From: an uncultured Flavipsychrobacter sp.
GTDB taxonomy: Bacteria > Bacteroidota > Bacteroidia > Chitinophagales > Chitinophagaceae
DNA: 64,000 nucleotides
Direction: 5' to 3'
Assembly: GCA_964531655.1 (NCBI GenBank)
Contig: CAZHDM010000003.1
Span: forward strand, 185,712 to 249,711
Below the pieces are notes generated by a model. That model was given only the letters and a program-made list of their open reading frames with translations. It was not told the origin of the DNA and searched no databases. Of this stretch, positions 31,382 through 41,340 are shown piece after piece. The position numbers and the translations under genes are program-made. Every line of letters begins with the position of its first letter. Positions within the stretch are counted from its first letter, which is position 1.

Positions 31382-32848
31382 TTATTGTTTCTTTTCAGGT
31401 TTTTTAGCGTATATCTCTACCCAGGTATATAAAAATTCTGCTTTATCTACCAGTGTATAGGCTGTATCCAGATGTGCTCTTTTGTAGTCTTCAATGTGTG
31501 GGTCTCCATGCGCACTGGCCACAGCAAAAGTATCTACATCATATTTAGACGAACTCTTTGACAATATAGAATCTACAATTGCTTCTTTATCCCCCGAAAG
31601 TAGCTCACCTTCGTAACCAAGTTTCTTCAAATAATAGTTCTGATGCCACCCGGTCATTTCATTAAGGATTGGCATACTCTTAGATTTATTTAATATATAC
31701 TCCGTCATCTCGCGGAACTGTTCTTTTTTTGGCTTTTCGTAAAACTCTTTTACATACACAATATCAAAAAACGCAAGGAAAAGGAATACCCCGAGTATAG
31801 TATATCTGATAAATTCATTTTTTATCAGATAGAAACCATAAGCTATACCTAAAAATAAGCCCGGTAGTACTACTACTGTATATCTGGAAACCATCATAGG
31901 CACTACAACTATCGATCTTACATACATGACGATGTAAGTGATTACAACACTGATGAAAATGAAGATGAAGCTTAGTAATAAAGGGCTCTTTTTGATCTCG
32001 GTGAACTTACCTTTCTGTGCAAAAACATTGACACAATATATAATCAAAGTGATGTTTATAAACGGCATCAAATAGTTTGAAGAGCCAATATATTCCAGCA
32101 AATAGTAGTAGTAAAAGTCTTGAGATGGCTTTTGTATCCAAAAGGATTCAATATTGGACATCTCTTTTAAATAAGGGAACCAAGGCACATAAACTATCAG
32201 TATTATTAACTCTACTATGAAAAACGATTTGAAGAACTTTAGCTTATTATCTTTCTCAGCTGCCCATAGAATGATGAATAATATTAGCTGACAGAATATA
32301 ATCAATAGGCTGAAATAGTGACTATATAGCAATAATACTGTGGAGAGTATATACCATATAGCATCAGCCCGTCTTAAGTACTTAGCAAATCTTAGAAAAT
32401 ATGTAAAAGAGAGAATAGTAAAGAACCATAAAAATATATACCCTCTTGCTTCTTGAGCATAGTAGATATTGAAGTAATTAAGACAAGTAATTGCAGCTGC
32501 TATTAAACCAAGACGTTCGTTTAACACTTCTTTCCCGAGCTTATACATTGCCCAAACACACCCTACACCTGCTAATGCCGGTGCTATTCTCGCTACATAT
32601 TCGTTATGTCCGAACAGGCTGAACATGATACGTTCTACAATAAAGAATATTGGAGGATGCTGGTCACAGCACATTAAACTATTAAATAACTCGCTCCAAG
32701 GAAGACTCGGGTCAGCTTCATTCATCGTATGTAGCTCATCCAGCCACAGGCTTTCGAACTGTAAATAATTAAATCTGAGAACAACAGCAACTATAAGTAT
32801 TACAGTTAGGATCAAATAGTTAACATACTTGTTTTGCACCTGTAACAT
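31382..32848 (-). CDS. GT-C-fold membrane glycosyltransferase (GT39/GT83 ArnT-like)
   Basis: 488 aa, polytopic. The first loop carries LWLDELHT (Asp-Glu motif). AT-rich, and 5 nt downstream of a GtrB-like GT2. Confidence 0.65.
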   Translation of the reverse strand: MLQVQNKYVNYLILTVILIVAVVLRFNYLQFESLWLDELHTMNEADPSLPWSELFNSLMCCDQHPPIFFIVERIMFSLFGHNEYVARIAPALAGVGCVWAMYKLGKEVLNERLGLIAAAITCLNYFNIYYAQEARGYIFLWFFTILSFTYFLRFAKYLRRADAIWYILSTVLLLYSHYFSLLIIFCQLILFIILWAAEKDNKLKFFKSFFIVELIILIVYVPWFPYLKEMSNIESFWIQKPSQDFYYYYLLEYIGSSNYLMPFINITLIIYCVNVFAQKGKFTEIKKSPLLLSFIFIFISVVITYIVMYVRSIVVVPMMVSRYTVVVLPGLFLGIAYGFYLIKNEFIRYTILGVFLFLAFFDIVYVKEFYEKPKKEQFREMTEYILNKSKSMPILNEMTGWHQNYYLKKLGYEGELLSGDKEAIVDSILSKSSSKYDVDTFAVASAHGDPHIEDYKRAHLDTAYTLVDKAEFLYTWVEIYAKKPEKKQ

Positions 32849-32853
32849 TCCTT

Positions 32854-33786
32854 CTATTTTATGATATTATATATTTCAACCTTCATTTTGTTATGACTTT
32901 GATGCATAAGATTCAGCAAGAGCAGACCTGTTACAAAAAAGCCTAAACATATAGTTGCGAGTATGACCAAACTAATAGTAAGTGTACTGAACCAACCCAG
33001 AATTGCTGTACCTGCTACAAACTTTTGGTATAACACATTAACAAACATGATCAATATCACTACAGACAATAAGACAAACATCTTTAAGAATATCATCAAC
33101 AAATCTTCTGCAAACTCTATGAAGGAACGGAATGCATGAAAAAGTAGTCCCTGTAACCCCATCTTGGACTTTCCATCTATACGCTTGCTCCTGTCATATG
33201 TTATACTGGTCTTTTTGGCTTTTTGCTTTAGTAAGTAAGCAGGGAAGTGTATAAAAGAAGTATTAGCTACACGCTCTACGATTACTTTGCTGATCATACT
33301 GTAGTTACCATAGTCCATTTTCTTATTAGTAACCAGCTTAAACAGCATTTTATACAGATAGTAAAAGAACCTGAATTTGAGACTTTCGTTACGCTTGCCT
33401 CTTTTTACCTCTACAATATCATAGTCCTTCTTTTGTACTATGTGAGGTATTGCTTCCGGATCATCCTCTCCATCTGAATCCATGACGATAACATGATCAA
33501 AACCTTGAGCTTGTGCGTATAACAACCCTTGAAAGATAACCGCCTGATGACCTGAATTATATAACAGGCCTAACACTTTAAGCGTAACATTCGATGACCT
33601 GAACGTATAATTTTTTATAATGTCTAGAGAATTATCTGTAGAGCAGTCATCTACAATAACTACTACAAATTGTTCACTTATGCTTCCTAATACTTCATCA
33701 AGCTTTTGTAAAAAATGACCAATAGATTCACTTTCGTTGAAGCAAGGAGCAATAATACCGATTGTACTGGGTGTCAGGTCTGCCAT
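32854..33786 (-). CDS. GT2 polyprenyl-phosphate glycosyltransferase (GtrB/ArnC/DPM1-like)
   Basis: IIAPCFNESESI, VVIVDDCSTDNS and DSDGEDDP, plus two C-terminal TM helices. Confidence 0.8.
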   Translation of the reverse strand: MADLTPSTIGIIAPCFNESESIGHFLQKLDEVLGSISEQFVVVIVDDCSTDNSLDIIKNYTFRSSNVTLKVLGLLYNSGHQAVIFQGLLYAQAQGFDHVIVMDSDGEDDPEAIPHIVQKKDYDIVEVKRGKRNESLKFRFFYYLYKMLFKLVTNKKMDYGNYSMISKVIVERVANTSFIHFPAYLLKQKAKKTSITYDRSKRIDGKSKMGLQGLLFHAFRSFIEFAEDLLMIFLKMFVLLSVVILIMFVNVLYQKFVAGTAILGWFSTLTISLVILATICLGFFVTGLLLLNLMHQSHNKMKVEIYNIIK

Positions 33787-35980: not shown

Positions 35981-36577
35981 CTATTCTACCAGTTCATCTT
36001 TGCGAGCAAAAGCAGGATGCAACTGTGGCAAAGTGGTGTGGAACAATACATCGTGCAGGCGGGTGTGCAGAATAGATGCAGGCAATGCTTTTTCTGTAGT
36101 GGCTACTTCCTGCTCTTGGGGTGCGGGTTGCGGTGTGACTTGTGTGGTGTGTACTACATTGATATTCCTGTCACTAGTATAATGCCCTGCCAGCTTGCTA
36201 TCCAGATCTATGGCTTTGAGCATCTGGTTGACCGTGGGCTTTACCAGCTGGGTACAGGTGTTGCAATCTTTACCCTTGTAGTTCTGCTCTACATAGATAT
36301 CGCCCTCTGCAATACGGGCTAATAATTCGCGCTTGCGCTGTACCGTGAGTAGTTGTGTTTTCAGCTCTTGCTGCAACTGCTGCTCTACTTCATTGCGTAT
36401 GCGGTTGGTGACCTCTGCTATGGCTGCTGCCACTTCAGGGTGTTGCAGTAGCCTGTTGGCGGCAGACTCTACCGTACGGTAAGAGGAGCTATCGCAATCG
36501 TAAGCTTTTTTGTAGGCGATCATCTTATCGCCAATGCGCAGGTACTCGGTTACAAATTGTTGTTGACGTGTATTCAT
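35981..36577 (-). CDS. phage terminase small subunit (Terminase_2/TerS)-like DNA-binding protein, orphan
   Basis: The N-terminus QQQFVTEYLRIGDKMIAYKKAYDCDSSSYRTVESAANRLLQHPEVAAAIAEV follows the TerS HTH pattern (F-x-x-Y-L ... A-Y-x-x-A-Y ... A-x-x-L-L-x-x-P-x-V). It is followed by a coiled region RELLARIAEGD and ...KAIDLDSKLAGHY. No large terminase or portal gene is nearby. Confidence 0.6.
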   Translation of the reverse strand: MNTRQQQFVTEYLRIGDKMIAYKKAYDCDSSSYRTVESAANRLLQHPEVAAAIAEVTNRIRNEVEQQLQQELKTQLLTVQRKRELLARIAEGDIYVEQNYKGKDCNTCTQLVKPTVNQMLKAIDLDSKLAGHYTSDRNINVVHTTQVTPQPAPQEQEVATTEKALPASILHTRLHDVLFHTTLPQLHPAFARKDELVE

Positions 36578-36669: not shown

Positions 36670-38421
36670 CTATTTTTTACCGAACTTTCTAAATGCTTGA
36701 ATGGTTTGGTATACCATGTACGATATAAATATTCTACCGACATAATCTATTATTCGTGCTAATGGAGTAACCTTATCTTCTTCTATAAAGGATGGCTGTT
36801 TACGTATGGGGTTTAGAAACTCAAAGGAGTGAGAAAAAAGCAACCAAAATTGCTCCATATCATCTCCAAACCTATATCCAATAGCCCAACAATAAGCACT
36901 AAAGAACAACCATACCATAGCCATAGTCATTCCAGTAGCTAAAAGCCAGTTGGTACCATAATAATTAGACCATCTATTGAGAAACAAATTGAAACGCTCT
37001 ACATTTCTATTTTTAATTTCTTTATTCTCTCTCAATAACTGTCTATACACTTCCATTTCCTGAGCTCTCATCTCCAATGCCCTCACTGTATCACCCTGAT
37101 TCTCGTATACTTTTTTAAATTGCCCTAATGCAAGTCTCCTTTGCTCATTACTATCTTTAACGTTCTTATTAATATCTTTAGCATGAGGTAACTTCGTATC
37201 AGCTAAAAAAACTTCAAGCATCTTTGAATTTTTGAATATAAAACTTTCAAAATCCGACAAATCACATCCGATAAATTGTGTATCACCTAAATCAGAGTTT
37301 ATAATACATATATCTGACTTTATTTTAAGATAAACGAGTGTTTTTATAATCAAAAATTTATATACAGCACTGTAGGGAAACAAATAATTTTCTGTTGCTG
37401 TACTATTTAATATTTTAAAAATATACTTATGCCTTAATGCTTTTATATCATTAAACACTATCCTCCCTTTGTTATTTAATGTATTGAATTCTAATGATTT
37501 AATATCTGTTTCAGATATTTGTAAGTTCGTATCGTTTGCTATTACTGATTGGTTTAATACTAATTTGTTTACTATAGACCTTATACTATTCTTATGAAAA
37601 GATTTAATTACTACATTATTAAAATTATCCATCAGGAAATGAAGAACGGTAATATCACAGGAGCTTATATTGAGGTTTTTAGACTTTTCTTTGAACGAAT
37701 AAAAATATACAGACAAGAAATTACAACTCTTTAGTTGAACATCTTCAATAATTGCTTTATCAACAATAAGGGTTTTTATCTTTGCGTCAAGAATGCGCAG
37801 TATGTCAACTTTTACTCCATTTATATCTATAGTTTCAACGAAAGAGTTATAAATACTATTTTCTTTGAATCTACCTCCTCTTATTTCATATCTTATTATT
37901 TCTGAATCGCTAATGCGAATATCATCTATTCTTGATTTATTCATGATGATGTACTCAAAATCAGACACTCTTAGATTAATTATATAGAGGTTAGAATTAT
38001 CAATTCTAATCTTCTTTAAATCACTTAGATCAGTTCTAAGAGCTCCTAGTGAAGAATATTCAATTGACATATATCTGATAGTAGAATTAGAAAGGATTAT
38101 ATTGTCTATTGTAGTACTTTCTATCTGGAAACTATCAATCACAGTATTCTCTATATCTATAAATATTCCGCTGGTATTGTTTATAAGAAAACTGTCTATA
38201 GTAATATTTTTCAATTCTAACTTGGGTAAGACTCTCTCATTCTCGATATTGACATCATCAATTATAAAGTTGTCAAATACTACATATTGCTCACCCCAAT
38301 AATTTCTCTGATAATACTCCTCATAACACTCTACGCCTTTATAATCACCTCTCCAAATCTTAATAAACTCTTTTGCTGATATCTTTTTGCGCTGGGGTTG
38401 CTCTTGCGGTGCTTGGTTCAT
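36670..38421 (-). CDS. 583-aa hypothetical protein with degenerate pentapeptide-like beta-helix repeats and a C-terminal transmembrane hairpin
   Basis: About 20-residue periodicity, e.g. IDIENTVIDSFQIESTTIDN / IILSNSTIRYMSIEYSSLGA / LRTDLSDLKKIRIDNSNLYI / INLRVSDFEYIIMNKSRIDD / IRISDSEIIRYEIRGGRFKE. C-terminal hydrophobic segments NWLLATGMTMAMVWLFFSAYCWAIGY and IIDYVGRIFISYMVYQTIQAF. The DNA is very AT-rich. Confidence 0.6.
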   Translation of the reverse strand: MNQAPQEQPQRKKISAKEFIKIWRGDYKGVECYEEYYQRNYWGEQYVVFDNFIIDDVNIENERVLPKLELKNITIDSFLINNTSGIFIDIENTVIDSFQIESTTIDNIILSNSTIRYMSIEYSSLGALRTDLSDLKKIRIDNSNLYIINLRVSDFEYIIMNKSRIDDIRISDSEIIRYEIRGGRFKENSIYNSFVETIDINGVKVDILRILDAKIKTLIVDKAIIEDVQLKSCNFLSVYFYSFKEKSKNLNISSCDITVLHFLMDNFNNVVIKSFHKNSIRSIVNKLVLNQSVIANDTNLQISETDIKSLEFNTLNNKGRIVFNDIKALRHKYIFKILNSTATENYLFPYSAVYKFLIIKTLVYLKIKSDICIINSDLGDTQFIGCDLSDFESFIFKNSKMLEVFLADTKLPHAKDINKNVKDSNEQRRLALGQFKKVYENQGDTVRALEMRAQEMEVYRQLLRENKEIKNRNVERFNLFLNRWSNYYGTNWLLATGMTMAMVWLFFSAYCWAIGYRFGDDMEQFWLLFSHSFEFLNPIRKQPSFIEEDKVTPLARIIDYVGRIFISYMVYQTIQAFRKFGKK

Positions 38422-38464
38422 GCGTGTTTGTGATATTAGTGCTGGTTATATATTACAAAATACC

Positions 38465-38533
38465 TCTTTCTTTTTACTTCAAAAGAAAGAAGCAAAGAAA
38501 ACCGCCAAGCATTTATGACGTTCAAATGCTTGG
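38465..38533 (-). promoter_or_regulatory. two adjacent stem-loops in the upstream region of the 583-aa ORF
   Basis: 38465-38490 has a 10-bp stem, TCTTTCTTTT/AAAAGAAAGA. 38505-38533 has a perfect 10-bp stem, CCAAGCATTT/AAATGCTTGG, with a 9-nt loop. Confidence 0.3.
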
Positions 38534-38610
38534 AGTATATCTATGTGGCAGCAGTGCTACTGTAGTTATGAGCTTTATAAAGTTTATTTGTAGTTGAAAA
38601 TACAATCAAA

Positions 38611-38638
38611 CAAAAACGGCTCGCCAATGGCGAGCCGT
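38611..38638 (-). terminator. rho-independent terminator after the FAH-family gene
   Basis: The minus strand reads ACGGCTCGCC-ATT-GGCGAGCCGT followed by TTTTTG. Confidence 0.8.
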
Positions 38639-38665
38639 AATGTGCTATATCTCGTTCAGAGTATA

Positions 38666-40491: not shown

Positions 40492-41340
40492 ATGTATTAT
40501 CTGCTGCTTTTTATTTTATACCCTTTATCGCTACTGCCGTTTGGTGTGCTATATCTACTGTCGGACGTGGGGTATGTATTGCTGTATCATGTGTTCAGCT
40601 ACAGGAAGCAGCTGGTATACAATAACCTGAAGCACGCCTTCCCCAATAAGACGGATGCAGAGCTAAAAACTATCAGAAAAAAGTTTTACCGCAGCTTTTG
40701 CGATCAGTGGGTAGAGACCATCAAGCTGTTATCTATATCGGAGGAGTCACTCAATAAGCGCATCACAGGCAACTGGTCTGTATTTCATGAATTGCATCAA
40801 GAAGGAAAAAACACGTACGCTCTATTGGGGCATAGCTTCAACTGGGAATGGGCCAATGTAGTGTGCCAGTATAATTGCGAACAGGTATTTGCAGGTGTAT
40901 ACATGCCGCAAAAAAGTGCGGGATTCGATAAACTGCTGCAGCGCATACGTACCTCCGGTGGTGGCTGGCAGATATCTATGAAGGCTAAGAGAGGTTTTCA
41001 GCAATTGAATGATGTGCAGTATATAGTAGGGCTCATGGCCGACCAGAACCCGCCCATAGTAAAAGCTGCTACGTGGCACAGGTTCATGCATCGTGAAGCA
41101 CCTTTCTTTAACGGGCCTGAGGTGTTGGCTAAAAGAGCAGGAGCAGCAGTAATATTTGCCGGTATAAAAAAAGTGAAGCGCGGATACTATGAGATAACCC
41201 TACACAAAATAACTGACGATGCTACTACTTTACCTAAAGGTGAATTGATGCAACAGTACGTTTCTTTTATGGAAGGACAACTGAATGCTCAACCGGAGAA
41301 CTGGCTATGGACCCACCGCAGATGGAAACATCAGCGTTAA
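40492..41340 (+). CDS. lipid A biosynthesis (Kdo)2-lipid IVA acyltransferase family (LpxL/HtrB-like)
   Basis: Start trimmed to the ATG (MYYLLLFILYPL). N-terminal TM segment and an HSFNWE (HX4E) acyltransferase motif. Confidence 0.75.
   Translation: MYYLLLFILYPLSLLPFGVLYLLSDVGYVLLYHVFSYRKQLVYNNLKHAFPNKTDAELKTIRKKFYRSFCDQWVETIKLLSISEESLNKRITGNWSVFHELHQEGKNTYALLGHSFNWEWANVVCQYNCEQVFAGVYMPQKSAGFDKLLQRIRTSGGGWQISMKAKRGFQQLNDVQYIVGLMADQNPPIVKAATWHRFMHREAPFFNGPEVLAKRAGAAVIFAGIKKVKRGYYEITLHKITDDATTLPKGELMQQYVSFMEGQLNAQPENWLWTHRRWKHQR

What the first reader, a model, noticed from the sequence alone, without database searches (positions are those of the whole stretch)
36670..38421. 583-aa protein with ~20-residue periodic beta-helix repeats ending in a membrane hairpin
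Seen in sequence:
- After an N-terminal segment (ISAKEFIKIWRGDYKG) resembling the start of pentapeptide-repeat proteins, residues ~65-330 show a repeating ~20-aa pattern. Hydrophobic residues recur every fifth position (IDIENTVIDSFQIESTTIDN / IILSNSTIRYMSIEYSSLGA / INLRVSDFEYIIMNKSRIDD and so on).
- A second repeat block follows (CIINSDLGDTQFIGCDLSDFESFIFKNSKMLEVFLADTKL).
- Next comes a charged helical stretch (ALEMRAQEMEVYRQLLRENKEIKNRN).
- The protein ends with two hydrophobic segments.

Established knowledge: four pentapeptides per turn give a right-handed quadrilateral beta-helix, and several such proteins (the Qnr/MfpA type) act as DNA mimics.

Inference: this is a membrane-tethered beta-helix whose repeats have diverged far from the A(D/N)LxX consensus. 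Next to a DNA-packaging-type DNA-binding protein, it could be a DNA-mimic decoy or sensor coupled to a membrane effector. That functional idea is pure speculation.
Basis: partly seen in the sequence, partly recalled or inferred. Interest (0 to 1): 0.65.

Follow-up and report, generated by a model that had tools for sequence, protein, structure and literature searches.

The report
Hypervariable pentapeptide-repeat protein with channel-like tail
This gene encodes a cytoplasmic repeat "rod" fused to a membrane module resembling the ion-channel effector of a known anti-phage system, and it differs drastically between otherwise near-identical strains, so it is most likely a stand-alone phage sensor that kills by depolarising the membrane.

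Summary
The 583-aa ORF (36670-38421, minus strand) is real. Its pentad periodicity is statistically significant. AlphaFold2 (pLDDT 82.6) models a long beta-solenoid (aa ~45-410), then a TPR-like hairpin, then helix / TM / short helix / helix.

Only one segment is clearly hydrophobic enough to be transmembrane.

The best structural match is HalA, the pentapeptide-repeat plus potassium-channel-like effector of the Hailong anti-phage system. There is no sequence-level match to HalA and no HalB nucleotidyltransferase partner.

The C-terminal module defines a large, Pfam-less family, mostly in Bacteroidota: 3972 clusters at E<=1e-3.

In strains whose flanking proteins are 98-100% identical, this protein is only 31-47% identical. 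The same pattern recurs at a second locus. The gene is 30% GC against 47-49% in its neighbours. Even its conserved parts have dS 4-6 times higher than the flanks.

Six of 80 related loci sit inside type I restriction-modification operons.

The neighbouring terminase-small-subunit-like gene is a conserved core gene of this species only, so a functional link is not supported. DNA mimicry is not supported either, because the repeat domain is near-neutral in charge.

Verdict: a HalB-less, hypervariable variant of a HalA-like sensor-channel. Defence function is inferred, not shown.

The parts
36670..38421 (-). Complete ORF of 583 aa: pentapeptide-type beta-solenoid fused to a C-terminal membrane module
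   Evidence: ORF call. AF2 model has pLDDT 82.6 and pTM 0.74. GC is 0.30 against 0.47-0.49 in adjacent genes.
38290..38421 (-). N-terminal cap (aa 1-44), containing the clade-conserved MNQxPQEQPxRKKISAxEFIKIWRGDYKG
   Evidence: Conserved in the close clade (alignment A1) but not across the wider family (A3). AF2 gives strand 12-14 and helix 16-24. DNA similarity to the other alleles ends 85-175 nt into the gene, at window ~38336-38246.
37327..38289 (-). Hypervariable beta-solenoid (aa 45-365), made of pentad/decad repeats; low-confidence insertions at aa 127-133 and 339-360
   Evidence: Periodicity test. AF2 strands every 10 residues. No DNA similarity to the syntenic alleles in L001, L003, L006 or L008. 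Length varies from 204 to 596 aa among homologues. GC is 0.266.
37186..37326 (-). Last, family-invariant solenoid turns (aa 366-412): SDLGDTQFIGCDL...FKNSKMLEVFLADTKLP
   Evidence: S376, D377, G379, K400, F405 and P412 are nearly invariant in 60 diverse members. The segment was used as a scan pattern that recovered 117 genomic relatives.
37027..37152 (-). TPR-like helical hairpin (aa 424-465): EQRRLALGQFKKVYENQGDTVRALEMRAQEMEVYR
   Evidence: AF2 helices at 424-442 and 445-465. The profile matches consensus-TPR proteins at E 5.4e-4. Q434, K436, K437, G443, D444 and E455 are nearly invariant.
36964..37008 (-). Amphipathic pre-membrane helix (aa 472-486): ERFNLFLNRWSNYYG
   Evidence: AF2 helix at 472-486. 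E475, L479, N482 and G489 are nearly invariant. Reading it as an interfacial 'slide helix' is inference.
36883..36948 (-). Transmembrane helix 1 (aa 492-513)
   Evidence: Kyte-Doolittle 19-residue mean 1.58 and Hessa sum 0.9 kcal/mol. It is the only segment that passes in 15 of 17 homologues. AF2 helix at 492-513.
36787..36858 (-). Short helix plus conserved loop FEFLNPIRK (aa 522-545); candidate re-entrant pore helix and filter-like loop
   Evidence: AF2 helix at 522-536. N537 and P538 are nearly invariant. The weak fold matches of the C-terminal model are mostly to pore domains of tetrameric cation channels, all with E>1.
36682..36765 (-). C-terminal amphipathic helix (aa 553-580) ending in AFRKFGKK; candidate inner helix
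   Evidence: AF2 helix at 553-580. R563, Y571, Q572, A576, F577 and R578 are nearly invariant. It is not hydrophobic enough to insert on its own.
38422..38665 (-). Upstream intergenic region: a strong terminator of the fumarylacetoacetate-hydrolase-family gene, then two further hairpins and a near-consensus Bacteroidota -7 box (TATTTTG) before the ATG
   Evidence: Sequence. The terminator scan found 8 sites against 1.7 expected. The promoter reading is inference from the known Bacteroidota TAnnTTTG motif.
35981..36577 (-). Neighbouring terminase-small-subunit-like gene (198 aa). This is context and probably not part of the system
   Evidence: Pfam Terminase_2 scores 39.2 bits (cut-off 26.1). 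PHROG 51 hit at 1.5e-14. No phage match by tblastn. Its dS of 0.20-0.23 and dN/dS of 0.07-0.10 are like the flanks. GC is 0.489. It is absent next to all 80 other family loci.

Best explanation
The gene encodes a single-protein sensor-effector of the HalA type.

Architecture (shown or predicted):
- A long cytoplasmic pentapeptide-type beta-solenoid (aa ~45-412) is joined through a TPR-like hairpin and an interfacial helix to a C-terminal outer helix / short re-entrant helix / inner helix module.

Mechanism (inferred):
- The C-terminal module oligomerises in the inner membrane, probably as a tetramer, into a cation-conducting pore.
- The solenoid acts as the gate and the specificity element.
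- In the resting state the pore is closed. Binding or loss of a ligand on the solenoid during phage infection opens it. The ligand is most likely a phage protein or nucleic acid.
- The membrane then depolarises and the infected cell stops growing, which is abortive infection.

Population pattern:
- Because the solenoid is the recognition surface, alleles with completely different solenoids are kept in the population at a fixed chromosomal site.

What is shown: the architecture, the family, the hypervariability, and the absence of a conserved partner gene.
What is inferred: channel formation, gating and the anti-phage role.
For: Architecture:
- AF2 model with pLDDT 82.6: solenoid plus six helices.
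- Significant pentad periodicity.
- The family profile hits solved pentapeptide proteins (6fls 1.9e-5, 2w7z 9e-5; AlbG 6.8e-4 for a proteobacterial member).
- The N-terminus has no signal peptide. Positive charges flank the cytoplasmic sides.

HalA likeness:
- 9nyi_A (HalA with oligo-dA) is the first of 238 PDB matches: E 3e-3, probability 0.99, 350 aligned columns on a 333-residue chain.
- HalA is described as a tetrameric DNA-gated channel that depolarises the membrane (PMC13434031).
- The C-terminal module modelled alone gives only weak matches, but they are almost all pore domains of tetrameric cation channels: Kir6.2, KirBac, NaK (TM 0.59 on the target), Shaker, SthK and TRPM3.

Conflict signature:
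- Flanking proteins are 98-100% identical between strains, while this protein is 31-47% identical.
- DNA similarity stops 85-175 nt into the gene. It resumes at aa ~375 or exactly at the stop codon.
- The pattern is replicated at a second locus: flanks 99.5-100%, gene 36%.
- dS of the conserved parts is 0.84-1.2, against 0.07-0.21 in the flanks. dN/dS is 0.10 in the C-terminal module.
- GC is 0.30 against 0.47-0.49 in adjacent genes.

Context in relatives:
- In 6 of 80 genomic loci the homologue lies between hsdM-hsdS and hsdR, together with DUF2971, PD-(D/E)XK or NucS-like genes.
- Other loci lie next to toxin-antitoxin or MNT/HEPN pairs.
- No conserved partner gene was found.
Against: - No experiment bears on this protein or its family.
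- The HalA match is weak globally (TM 0.19 on the query, 0.29 on the target) and just above E 1e-3. The C-terminal model alone does not retrieve HalA, and none of its matches is significant.
- HalA is not found by sequence in five PDB searches. No Pfam channel family is detected.
- The putative inner helix is poorly hydrophobic.
- Most of the 80 related loci, including this window, sit among housekeeping genes. PADLOC finds nothing for the protein itself.
- The six type I R-M loci are all Flavobacteriales-type and may reflect one ancestral insertion.
- Hypervariability shows conflict or frequency-dependent selection, not specifically phage defence.
Confidence: 0.5

Rival explanations
1. A true Hailong-type guard. 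The solenoid 'crown' binds a constitutively made nucleic-acid signal that keeps the channel shut. The signal-making nucleotidyltransferase is encoded elsewhere in the genome, and phage nucleases that destroy the signal open the channel.
For: - The architecture is the same as HalA, which is the top fold match.
- Two of 80 related loci (L046, L052) carry an adjacent MNT nucleotidyltransferase gene plus a HEPN-like gene. The Hailong partner is described as NTase-like plus HEPN-like.
Against: - No nucleotidyltransferase gene lies within the surrounding genes of the window.
- None recurs in the +/-1 neighbours of the 80 loci. It appears in only 2 of 80 at +/-2. MNT/HEPN toxin-antitoxin pairs are common bystanders.
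- A conserved small ligand would not explain complete replacement of the solenoid between strains.
Confidence: 0.12
2. A two-gene unit with the downstream terminase-small-subunit-like protein. The TerS-like protein acts as bait for phage packaging proteins, or as a DNA-binding regulator, and signals to the membrane protein.
For: - The two genes are on the same strand, 92 nt apart.
- The neighbour is a genuine Terminase_2 / PHROG 51 match.
- Adjacency is kept in all five strains of this species.
- There is no large terminase or other phage gene nearby, so the TerS-like gene is a solitary, selected gene (dN/dS 0.07-0.10).
Against: - It is absent next to 80 of 80 other family members and at the paralogous locus B.
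- Its GC (0.489) and dS equal those of the core flanks, whereas the repeat gene is 0.30 GC with dS 4-6 times higher.
- DNA conservation resumes exactly at the stop codon of the repeat gene.
- A separate TATATTTG promoter-like box precedes the TerS-like gene.
Confidence: 0.08
3. A membrane-tethered DNA mimic of the Qnr/MfpA/AlbG kind. It would protect a DNA enzyme such as gyrase, or decoy DNA-binding proteins.
For: The sequence profile and individual members hit AlbG/McbG-like, Qnr and MfpA structures.
Against: - The repeat domain is near-neutral here (net -2, pI 6.0). It varies from -20 to +8 among homologues, so a DNA-like negative surface is not a conserved property.
- The solenoid is about 2-3 times longer than in Qnr/MfpA.
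- A housekeeping protective role does not predict allele replacement between near-identical strains.
Confidence: 0.05
4. An ordinary regulated ion channel or membrane scaffold with no role in conflict. Its cytoplasmic repeat domain is simply poorly constrained, or the locus is a neutral recombination hotspot.
For: - Most family loci lie among housekeeping genes.
- The family is large and taxonomically coherent in Bacteroidota.
- There are no PADLOC hits.
Against: - Relaxed constraint raises dN, not dS. Here the conserved parts have dS 0.84-1.2 against 0.07-0.21 in the flanks, with dN/dS 0.10. This indicates old allelic lineages or imports kept under purifying selection.
- The solenoid keeps its periodic architecture in every allele.
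- The composition is foreign.
- The same pattern occurs at two loci.
- Some relatives are embedded in R-M operons.
Confidence: 0.2

Closest known systems
HalA, the effector of the Hailong anti-phage system (PDB 9NYI; Tan et al. 2025, cited in PMC13434031 and PMC13586616)
   Same: - The order of parts is the same: a pentapeptide-repeat cytoplasmic domain followed by a potassium-channel-like (IRK-type) membrane domain.
- It is the best structural match of the full-length model.
- The expected output is the same: membrane depolarisation.
   Different: - No detectable sequence similarity.
- The solenoid is far longer: about 365 residues, in a protein of 583 aa against 333.
- No adjacent halB nucleotidyltransferase gene.
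- A TPR-like hairpin lies between the solenoid and the membrane part.
- The solenoid is hypervariable between strains.
- The host range is Bacteroidota.
Pentapeptide-repeat proteins (Pfam PF00805/PF13599; solved examples Qnr, MfpA, AlbG, Cbo 6FLS, EfsQnr 2W7Z)
   Same: - Pentad periodicity with inward-facing hydrophobic positions.
- Profile-level similarity (E 1.9e-5 to 1e-4).
- A predicted beta-solenoid.
   Different: - It falls below the Pfam gathering score.
- The repeats are I/N/S/T-rich decads rather than A(D/N)LxX.
- It is not acidic.
- It is fused to a membrane module.
- Profile similarity to the 21-residue leucine-rich repeats of internalin J is as strong (4.1e-9). The repeat class therefore rests on the model and on the conserved terminal turns.
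Accessory effectors embedded in type I restriction-modification operons (the PrrC/EcoprrI arrangement)
   Same: Six relatives sit between hsdS and hsdR, as PrrC does.
   Different: - The window gene itself is not in an R-M operon.
- PrrC is an anticodon nuclease, not a membrane protein.
- No evidence that R-M status controls this family.
Other single-protein or effector membrane pores of phage defence (RexB, SLATT-domain effectors, Rip1)
   Same: The proposed logic is the same: a cytoplasmic sensor is coupled to loss of membrane potential.
   Different: - No sequence or fold match to any of them was found here. PADLOC is empty and there are no SLATT Pfam hits.
- The membrane module looks like a two-helix-plus-pore-helix channel rather than a SLATT hairpin.

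Membership tests
Pentapeptide-repeat family (Pfam PF00805/PF13599) | Tandem five-residue repeats with a hydrophobic centre residue | tested here: met
   Power at period 5 and its harmonic exceeds 1997 of 2000 and 2000 of 2000 shuffles respectively. Autocorrelation peaks fall at multiples of 5.
Pentapeptide-repeat family (Pfam PF00805/PF13599) | Score at or above the Pfam gathering threshold | tested here: not met
   Pentapeptide_4 scores 24.2 bits against a cut-off of 38. Only 12 of 60 family members give even a sub-threshold hit. The profile does reach solved pentapeptide proteins at 1.9e-5.
Pentapeptide-repeat family (Pfam PF00805/PF13599) | Right-handed four-sided beta-helix with 20 residues per turn | tested here: inconclusive
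   AF2 gives a confident beta-solenoid with strands every 10 residues. Fold matches to MfpA, Qnr and AlbG are weak (E 0.3-1.1). Model coordinates could not be inspected for handedness or cross-section.
Qnr/MfpA-type DNA mimics | Strongly electronegative, DNA-like surface on a ~200-aa soluble dimer | tested here: not met
   Net charge of the repeat domain is -2 (pI 6.0), with a range of -20 to +8 in homologues. The protein is 583 aa with a membrane segment. Net charge is only a crude proxy for surface electrostatics.
HalA (Hailong effector) | Pentapeptide-repeat cytoplasmic domain followed by an IRK/potassium-channel-like membrane domain | tested here: met
   AF2 architecture. The HalA architecture is taken from PMC13586616. 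The channel-like reading of the C-terminus rests on weak fold matches.
HalA (Hailong effector) | Structural similarity to the solved HalA chain (9NYI) | tested here: inconclusive
   The full-length model gives rank 1, E 3e-3, probability 0.99, but TM-scores of only 0.19 and 0.29. The C-terminal model alone does not retrieve 9NYI at E<=10.
HalA (Hailong effector) | Detectable sequence homology to HalA | tested here: not met
   9NYI is absent from five PDB sequence and profile searches at E<=10.
HalA (Hailong effector) | Operon partner halB (a nucleotidyltransferase that makes oligo-dA) | tested here: not met
   There is none among the window's neighbouring genes. No NTase family recurs in the +/-1 neighbours of 80 loci. 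Separate MNT plus HEPN genes occur in only 2 of 80 loci.
HalA (Hailong effector) | Tetramer that binds oligodeoxyadenylate and conducts cations when released | not testable with these tools
   This needs multimer modelling, biochemistry or electrophysiology.
Phage terminase small subunit (the neighbouring gene, Pfam PF03592) | Terminase_2 domain above threshold | tested here: met
   39.2 bits against a cut-off of 26.1. PHROG 51 hit at 1.5e-14.
Phage terminase small subunit (the neighbouring gene, Pfam PF03592) | Located in a packaging module, with a large terminase or other phage genes | tested here: not met
   It is flanked by 3-hydroxyacyl-CoA dehydrogenase and the repeat gene. The surrounding genes are housekeeping. 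There is no tblastn match in 50,697 phage records.
Defence genes embedded in type I R-M operons | Position between hsdM/hsdS and hsdR | tested here: not met
   This is true for 6 of 80 relatives: L058, L068, L077, L083, L086 and L090. It is not true for the window gene.

The most novel reading that the evidence does not exclude
A large, unannotated Bacteroidota family of partner-less HalA-like proteins. In these proteins the pentapeptide solenoid itself is a direct, allele-specific receptor for phage components, gating a built-in cation channel. Ancient, mutually unalignable receptor alleles would be maintained by frequency-dependent selection at fixed chromosomal sites, making this a bacterial counterpart of polymorphic immune-receptor loci.
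Probability: 0.3. Interest if true: 0.8.

Novelty: new variant of a known kind. Interest (0 to 1): 0.6.

Why it matters
- Hailong showed that a pentapeptide-repeat 'crown' can gate a membrane channel in immunity, but only together with a signal-making enzyme. If this family works without a partner, the crown-plus-channel module is a general, reusable sensor-effector chassis.
- The family comprises thousands of 50%-identity clusters, and no Pfam or NCBIfam model covers the membrane part.
- The natural allele series gives a ready-made experiment for mapping recognition specificity, because the backbone is the same and only the solenoid is replaced.
- It would add a defence family in Bacteroidota, where few systems have been characterised.
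- It would also document balanced, receptor-like polymorphism at a core-genome site rather than on a mobile island.

Tried and rejected
Searches that found nothing:
- PADLOC and NCBIfam scans of the protein.
- tblastn of the TerS-like protein against phage genomes.
- Five sequence or profile searches of the PDB: no HalA match.
- Pfam scan of the C-terminal module at E<=10: no channel, SLATT or other family.
- Folding the C-terminal module alone, to sharpen the HalA match: no significant hit, only a channel-rich list of weak matches.
- Search for silent cassettes, other copies or tandem DNA repeats that could drive programmed variation: none in the 64-kb window.
- tRNA and Rfam scans, to look for an integration site or a regulatory RNA: none.

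Literature:
- The original Hailong paper (PMC12360457) is not held, so the HalA architecture was taken from secondary sources.
- A paper on programmed inversions mentions pentapeptide proteins only as depleted, which is not relevant here.

Readings considered and rejected:
- A surface adhesin or secreted beta-helix: there is no signal peptide or T9SS tail.
- A diversity-generating retroelement: there is no reverse transcriptase or template repeat nearby, and the divergence is far beyond adenine mutagenesis.
- A decaying prophage remnant: the TerS-like gene is under purifying selection and has core composition.
Full report
**1. The observation**

The ORF 36670..38421 on the minus strand encodes 583 aa, as stated. 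All the quoted sequence segments are present.

Over aa 50-335, I/L/V/F/M residues recur with period 5. Spectral power is 1.61 against 0.24+/-0.23 in shuffles, and 3 of 2000 shuffles reach it. The harmonic at 2.5 has power 4.59, reached by 0 of 2000 shuffles. Autocorrelation peaks fall at lags 5, 10, 20, 30, 35 and 40. There is no independent power at period 20, so the 20-residue unit is an interpretation of a pentad/decad pattern.

Hydrophobicity supports one clear transmembrane segment, aa 492-516 (Kyte-Doolittle 1.58, Hessa sum 0.9). The final helix (aa 553-580) is amphipathic and fails both scales in nearly all 17 close homologues. The charge distribution fits an N-in/C-in hairpin, but this was not tested with a topology predictor.

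**2. Structure**

An AlphaFold2 model built on 17 homologues has mean pLDDT 82.6 and pTM 0.74. It contains, in order:

- a short N-terminal cap;
- a continuous beta-solenoid from about aa 45 to 410, with strands every 10 residues and low-confidence loops at aa 127-133 and 339-360;
- helices at 424-442 and 445-465, a hairpin whose sequence resembles a consensus TPR (E 5.4e-4);
- helices at 472-486, 492-513 (the TM segment), 522-536 and 553-580.

Pfam gives only a sub-threshold Pentapeptide_4 hit, 24 bits against a cut-off of 38. The family profile reaches solved pentapeptide proteins: 6fls at 1.9e-5 and 2w7z at 9e-5. A proteobacterial member hits AlbG at 6.8e-4.

A broader profile also hits the leucine-rich repeats of internalin J at 4.1e-9. 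Repeat-class assignment from sequence alone is therefore not clean. The family-invariant last turns (SDLGxTxFIxCDL...) look like typical pentapeptide repeats.

**3. Closest structure**

The full-length model's best PDB match is 9nyi_A, HalA bound to oligodeoxyadenylate. The match has E 3e-3, probability 0.99 and 350 aligned columns on 333 residues, but low TM-scores of 0.19 and 0.29.

[quoted passage not shown] Loss of that DNA opens the channel and depolarises the cell (PMC13434031; PMC13276650). [quoted passage not shown] The window protein therefore has the same order of parts.

Modelled alone, the C-terminal 218 residues (pLDDT 77.7) give no significant match and do not retrieve HalA. The weak list is nevertheless dominated by pore domains of tetrameric cation channels: Kir6.2, KirBac, the NaK pore (TM 0.59 on the target), Shaker, SthK, KCNQ and TRPM3.

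This fits the sequence order interfacial helix / outer helix / short helix / conserved loop (FEFLNPIRK) / inner helix. HalA is not detectable by sequence, and no Pfam model covers the C-terminal module.

**4. The family**

The word-indexed search found only 17 relatives. A profile of the C-terminal module, scored against 1.84 billion cluster representatives, found many more:

| E-value threshold | Proteins |
|---|---|
| 1e-3 | 3972 |
| 1e-10 | 2617 |
| 1e-30 | 512 |

A scan of one genome per species returned 117 confirmed loci. Almost all are in Bacteroidota (Chitinophagaceae, Cytophagales, Flavobacteriales, Sphingobacteriales), with three in Proteobacteria. Sources name them 'hypothetical' or 'pentapeptide repeat protein'.

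The solenoid length varies several-fold. The terminal turns, the TPR-like hairpin, the NxxSNxxGxxW helix, the NP loop and the YQxIxAFRKxGKK tail are conserved.

**5. Hypervariability**

Five assemblies from one sample series carry the same locus: fumarylacetoacetate-hydrolase-family gene, this gene, TerS-like gene, 3-hydroxyacyl-CoA dehydrogenase.

| Gene(s) | Protein identity to the window |
|---|---|
| Flanking genes | 98-100% |
| TerS-like | 93-96% |
| This gene | 31-47% |

At the DNA level, similarity stops 85-175 nt into the gene. It is absent over the whole solenoid. It resumes either at about aa 375 (two alleles, 88%) or exactly at the stop codon (two alleles that carry a second type of membrane tail...YNFIRASRRFIN).

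| Region | dS | dN/dS |
|---|---|---|
| Flanks | 0.07-0.21 | <=0.05 |
| Conserved C-terminal module of this gene | 0.85 | 0.10 |
| First 32 codons of this gene | 0.84-1.2 | not given |

The alleles are therefore much older than the strains, or imported, and remain under purifying selection.

The gene has 30% GC (26.6% in the solenoid), against 47-49% in both neighbours.

The pattern repeats at a second site, next to rplM-rpsI. There two assemblies have flanks 99.5-100% identical but only 36% identity in this gene, with DNA breakpoints at the same relative positions. A Flavipsychrobacter MAG and another relative carry further alleles at that site.

No silent cassettes, extra copies or tandem DNA repeats exist in the window.

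**6. Context**

The TerS-like neighbour is a genuine Terminase_2 / PHROG 51 match, but several things argue against a functional link:

- It is solitary, with no phage genes nearby and no phage tblastn hit.
- It has core composition and core dS.
- It has its own promoter-like box.
- It is absent from all 80 other family loci and from locus B.

Across the 80 loci there is no universal partner. The commonest adjacent family is the type I R-M specificity subunit, in six loci where the gene lies between hsdM-hsdS and hsdR. It sits there alongside DUF2971, DUF4268/NucS-like, PD-(D/E)XK or DUF5655 genes.

Two loci have adjacent MNT plus HEPN genes. A few others sit beside toxin-antitoxin or Rhs genes. 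The remainder, like the window, are among housekeeping genes.

**7. Interpretation**

The best-supported reading is a stand-alone HalA-like sensor-channel. The cytoplasmic solenoid would be the variable recognition and gating element, and the C-terminal module would form a depolarising pore (confidence about 0.5).

Shown:

- the architecture;
- family size and distribution;
- lack of a conserved partner;
- extreme and old allelic divergence at two fixed loci;
- foreign composition;
- R-M embedding in a subfamily.

Inferred:

- oligomeric pore;
- gating;
- phage trigger;
- abortive outcome.

The DNA-mimic idea is not supported: net charge of the solenoid is -2 here and -20 to +8 across homologues. 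The TerS link is not supported. A Hailong-like dependence on an unlinked NTase remains possible but unlikely. A non-conflict channel role is hard to reconcile with the dS and composition data.

**8. Novelty**

The chassis of a pentapeptide crown plus a channel is known from Hailong (2025). This family differs in five ways:

- it has no halB;
- its solenoid is far longer and hypervariable;
- it has a TPR-like connector;
- it has no sequence similarity to HalA;
- it has a Bacteroidota distribution.

I rate it a new variant of a known kind, with interest 0.6.

Noticed in passing
L001:2496-3071, L003:1761-2336, L006:2495-3070; the corresponding window site is ~41337-41340: Three sister strains carry an extra canonical 191-aa pentapeptide-repeat protein (Pentapeptide_4, 7e-41) between the diacylglycerol-kinase-like and lipid A acyltransferase genes. 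In the window these two genes abut with no room for it. L008 has an 83-aa ORF there instead. This is a second strain-variable pentapeptide site 3 kb away.
   Followed up: partly
L001:8947-9462, L006:8735-9250, L003:5167-5781, L008:5208-5771: The island between the hydrolase and dehydrogenase genes also gains or loses small ORFs. A 171-aa ORF follows the TerS-like gene in two strains. A 204-aa or a 187-aa (opposite strand) ORF precedes the repeat gene in two others. None is present in the window, and none has a Pfam hit. The 187-aa ORF weakly matches PHROG 24538.
   Followed up: partly
window 31382-33786: The glycosyltransferase family 2 and PMT_2 gene pair has low GC (0.35) and is missing from strain L003, where the FMN reductase gene is followed directly by mfd. 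This looks like another strain-variable insertion.
   Followed up: no
L004 vs L093 (locus next to rplM-rpsI); also L010, L091: A paralogous copy of the family occupies a second conserved site. It shows the same allele replacement: flanks 99.5-100%, gene 36%. Whether one genome carries both copies is unknown.
   Followed up: partly
L046:7143-7933 and L052:4557-5187: Separate MNT nucleotidyltransferase and HEPN-like genes lie directly beside the family gene in two distant Bacteroidota. The domain content is reminiscent of the Hailong partner HalB. It could equally be a bystander toxin-antitoxin pair.
   Followed up: partly
window 38461-38638 (minus strand): Three consecutive hairpin-plus-T-run structures lie between the hydrolase gene and the repeat gene. 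The region as a whole has 8 terminator-like sites against 1.7 expected.
   Followed up: no
window 36100-36135 and 38395-38415: The C-terminal tail of the TerS-like protein (…TPQPAPQEQEV…) and the N-terminus of the repeat protein (MNQAPQEQPQ…) share the short motif APQEQ. It is too short to assess and is possibly chance.
   Followed up: no
window 1-64000: There are no tRNA genes and no Rfam family at gathering score anywhere in the 64-kb window.
   Followed up: yes
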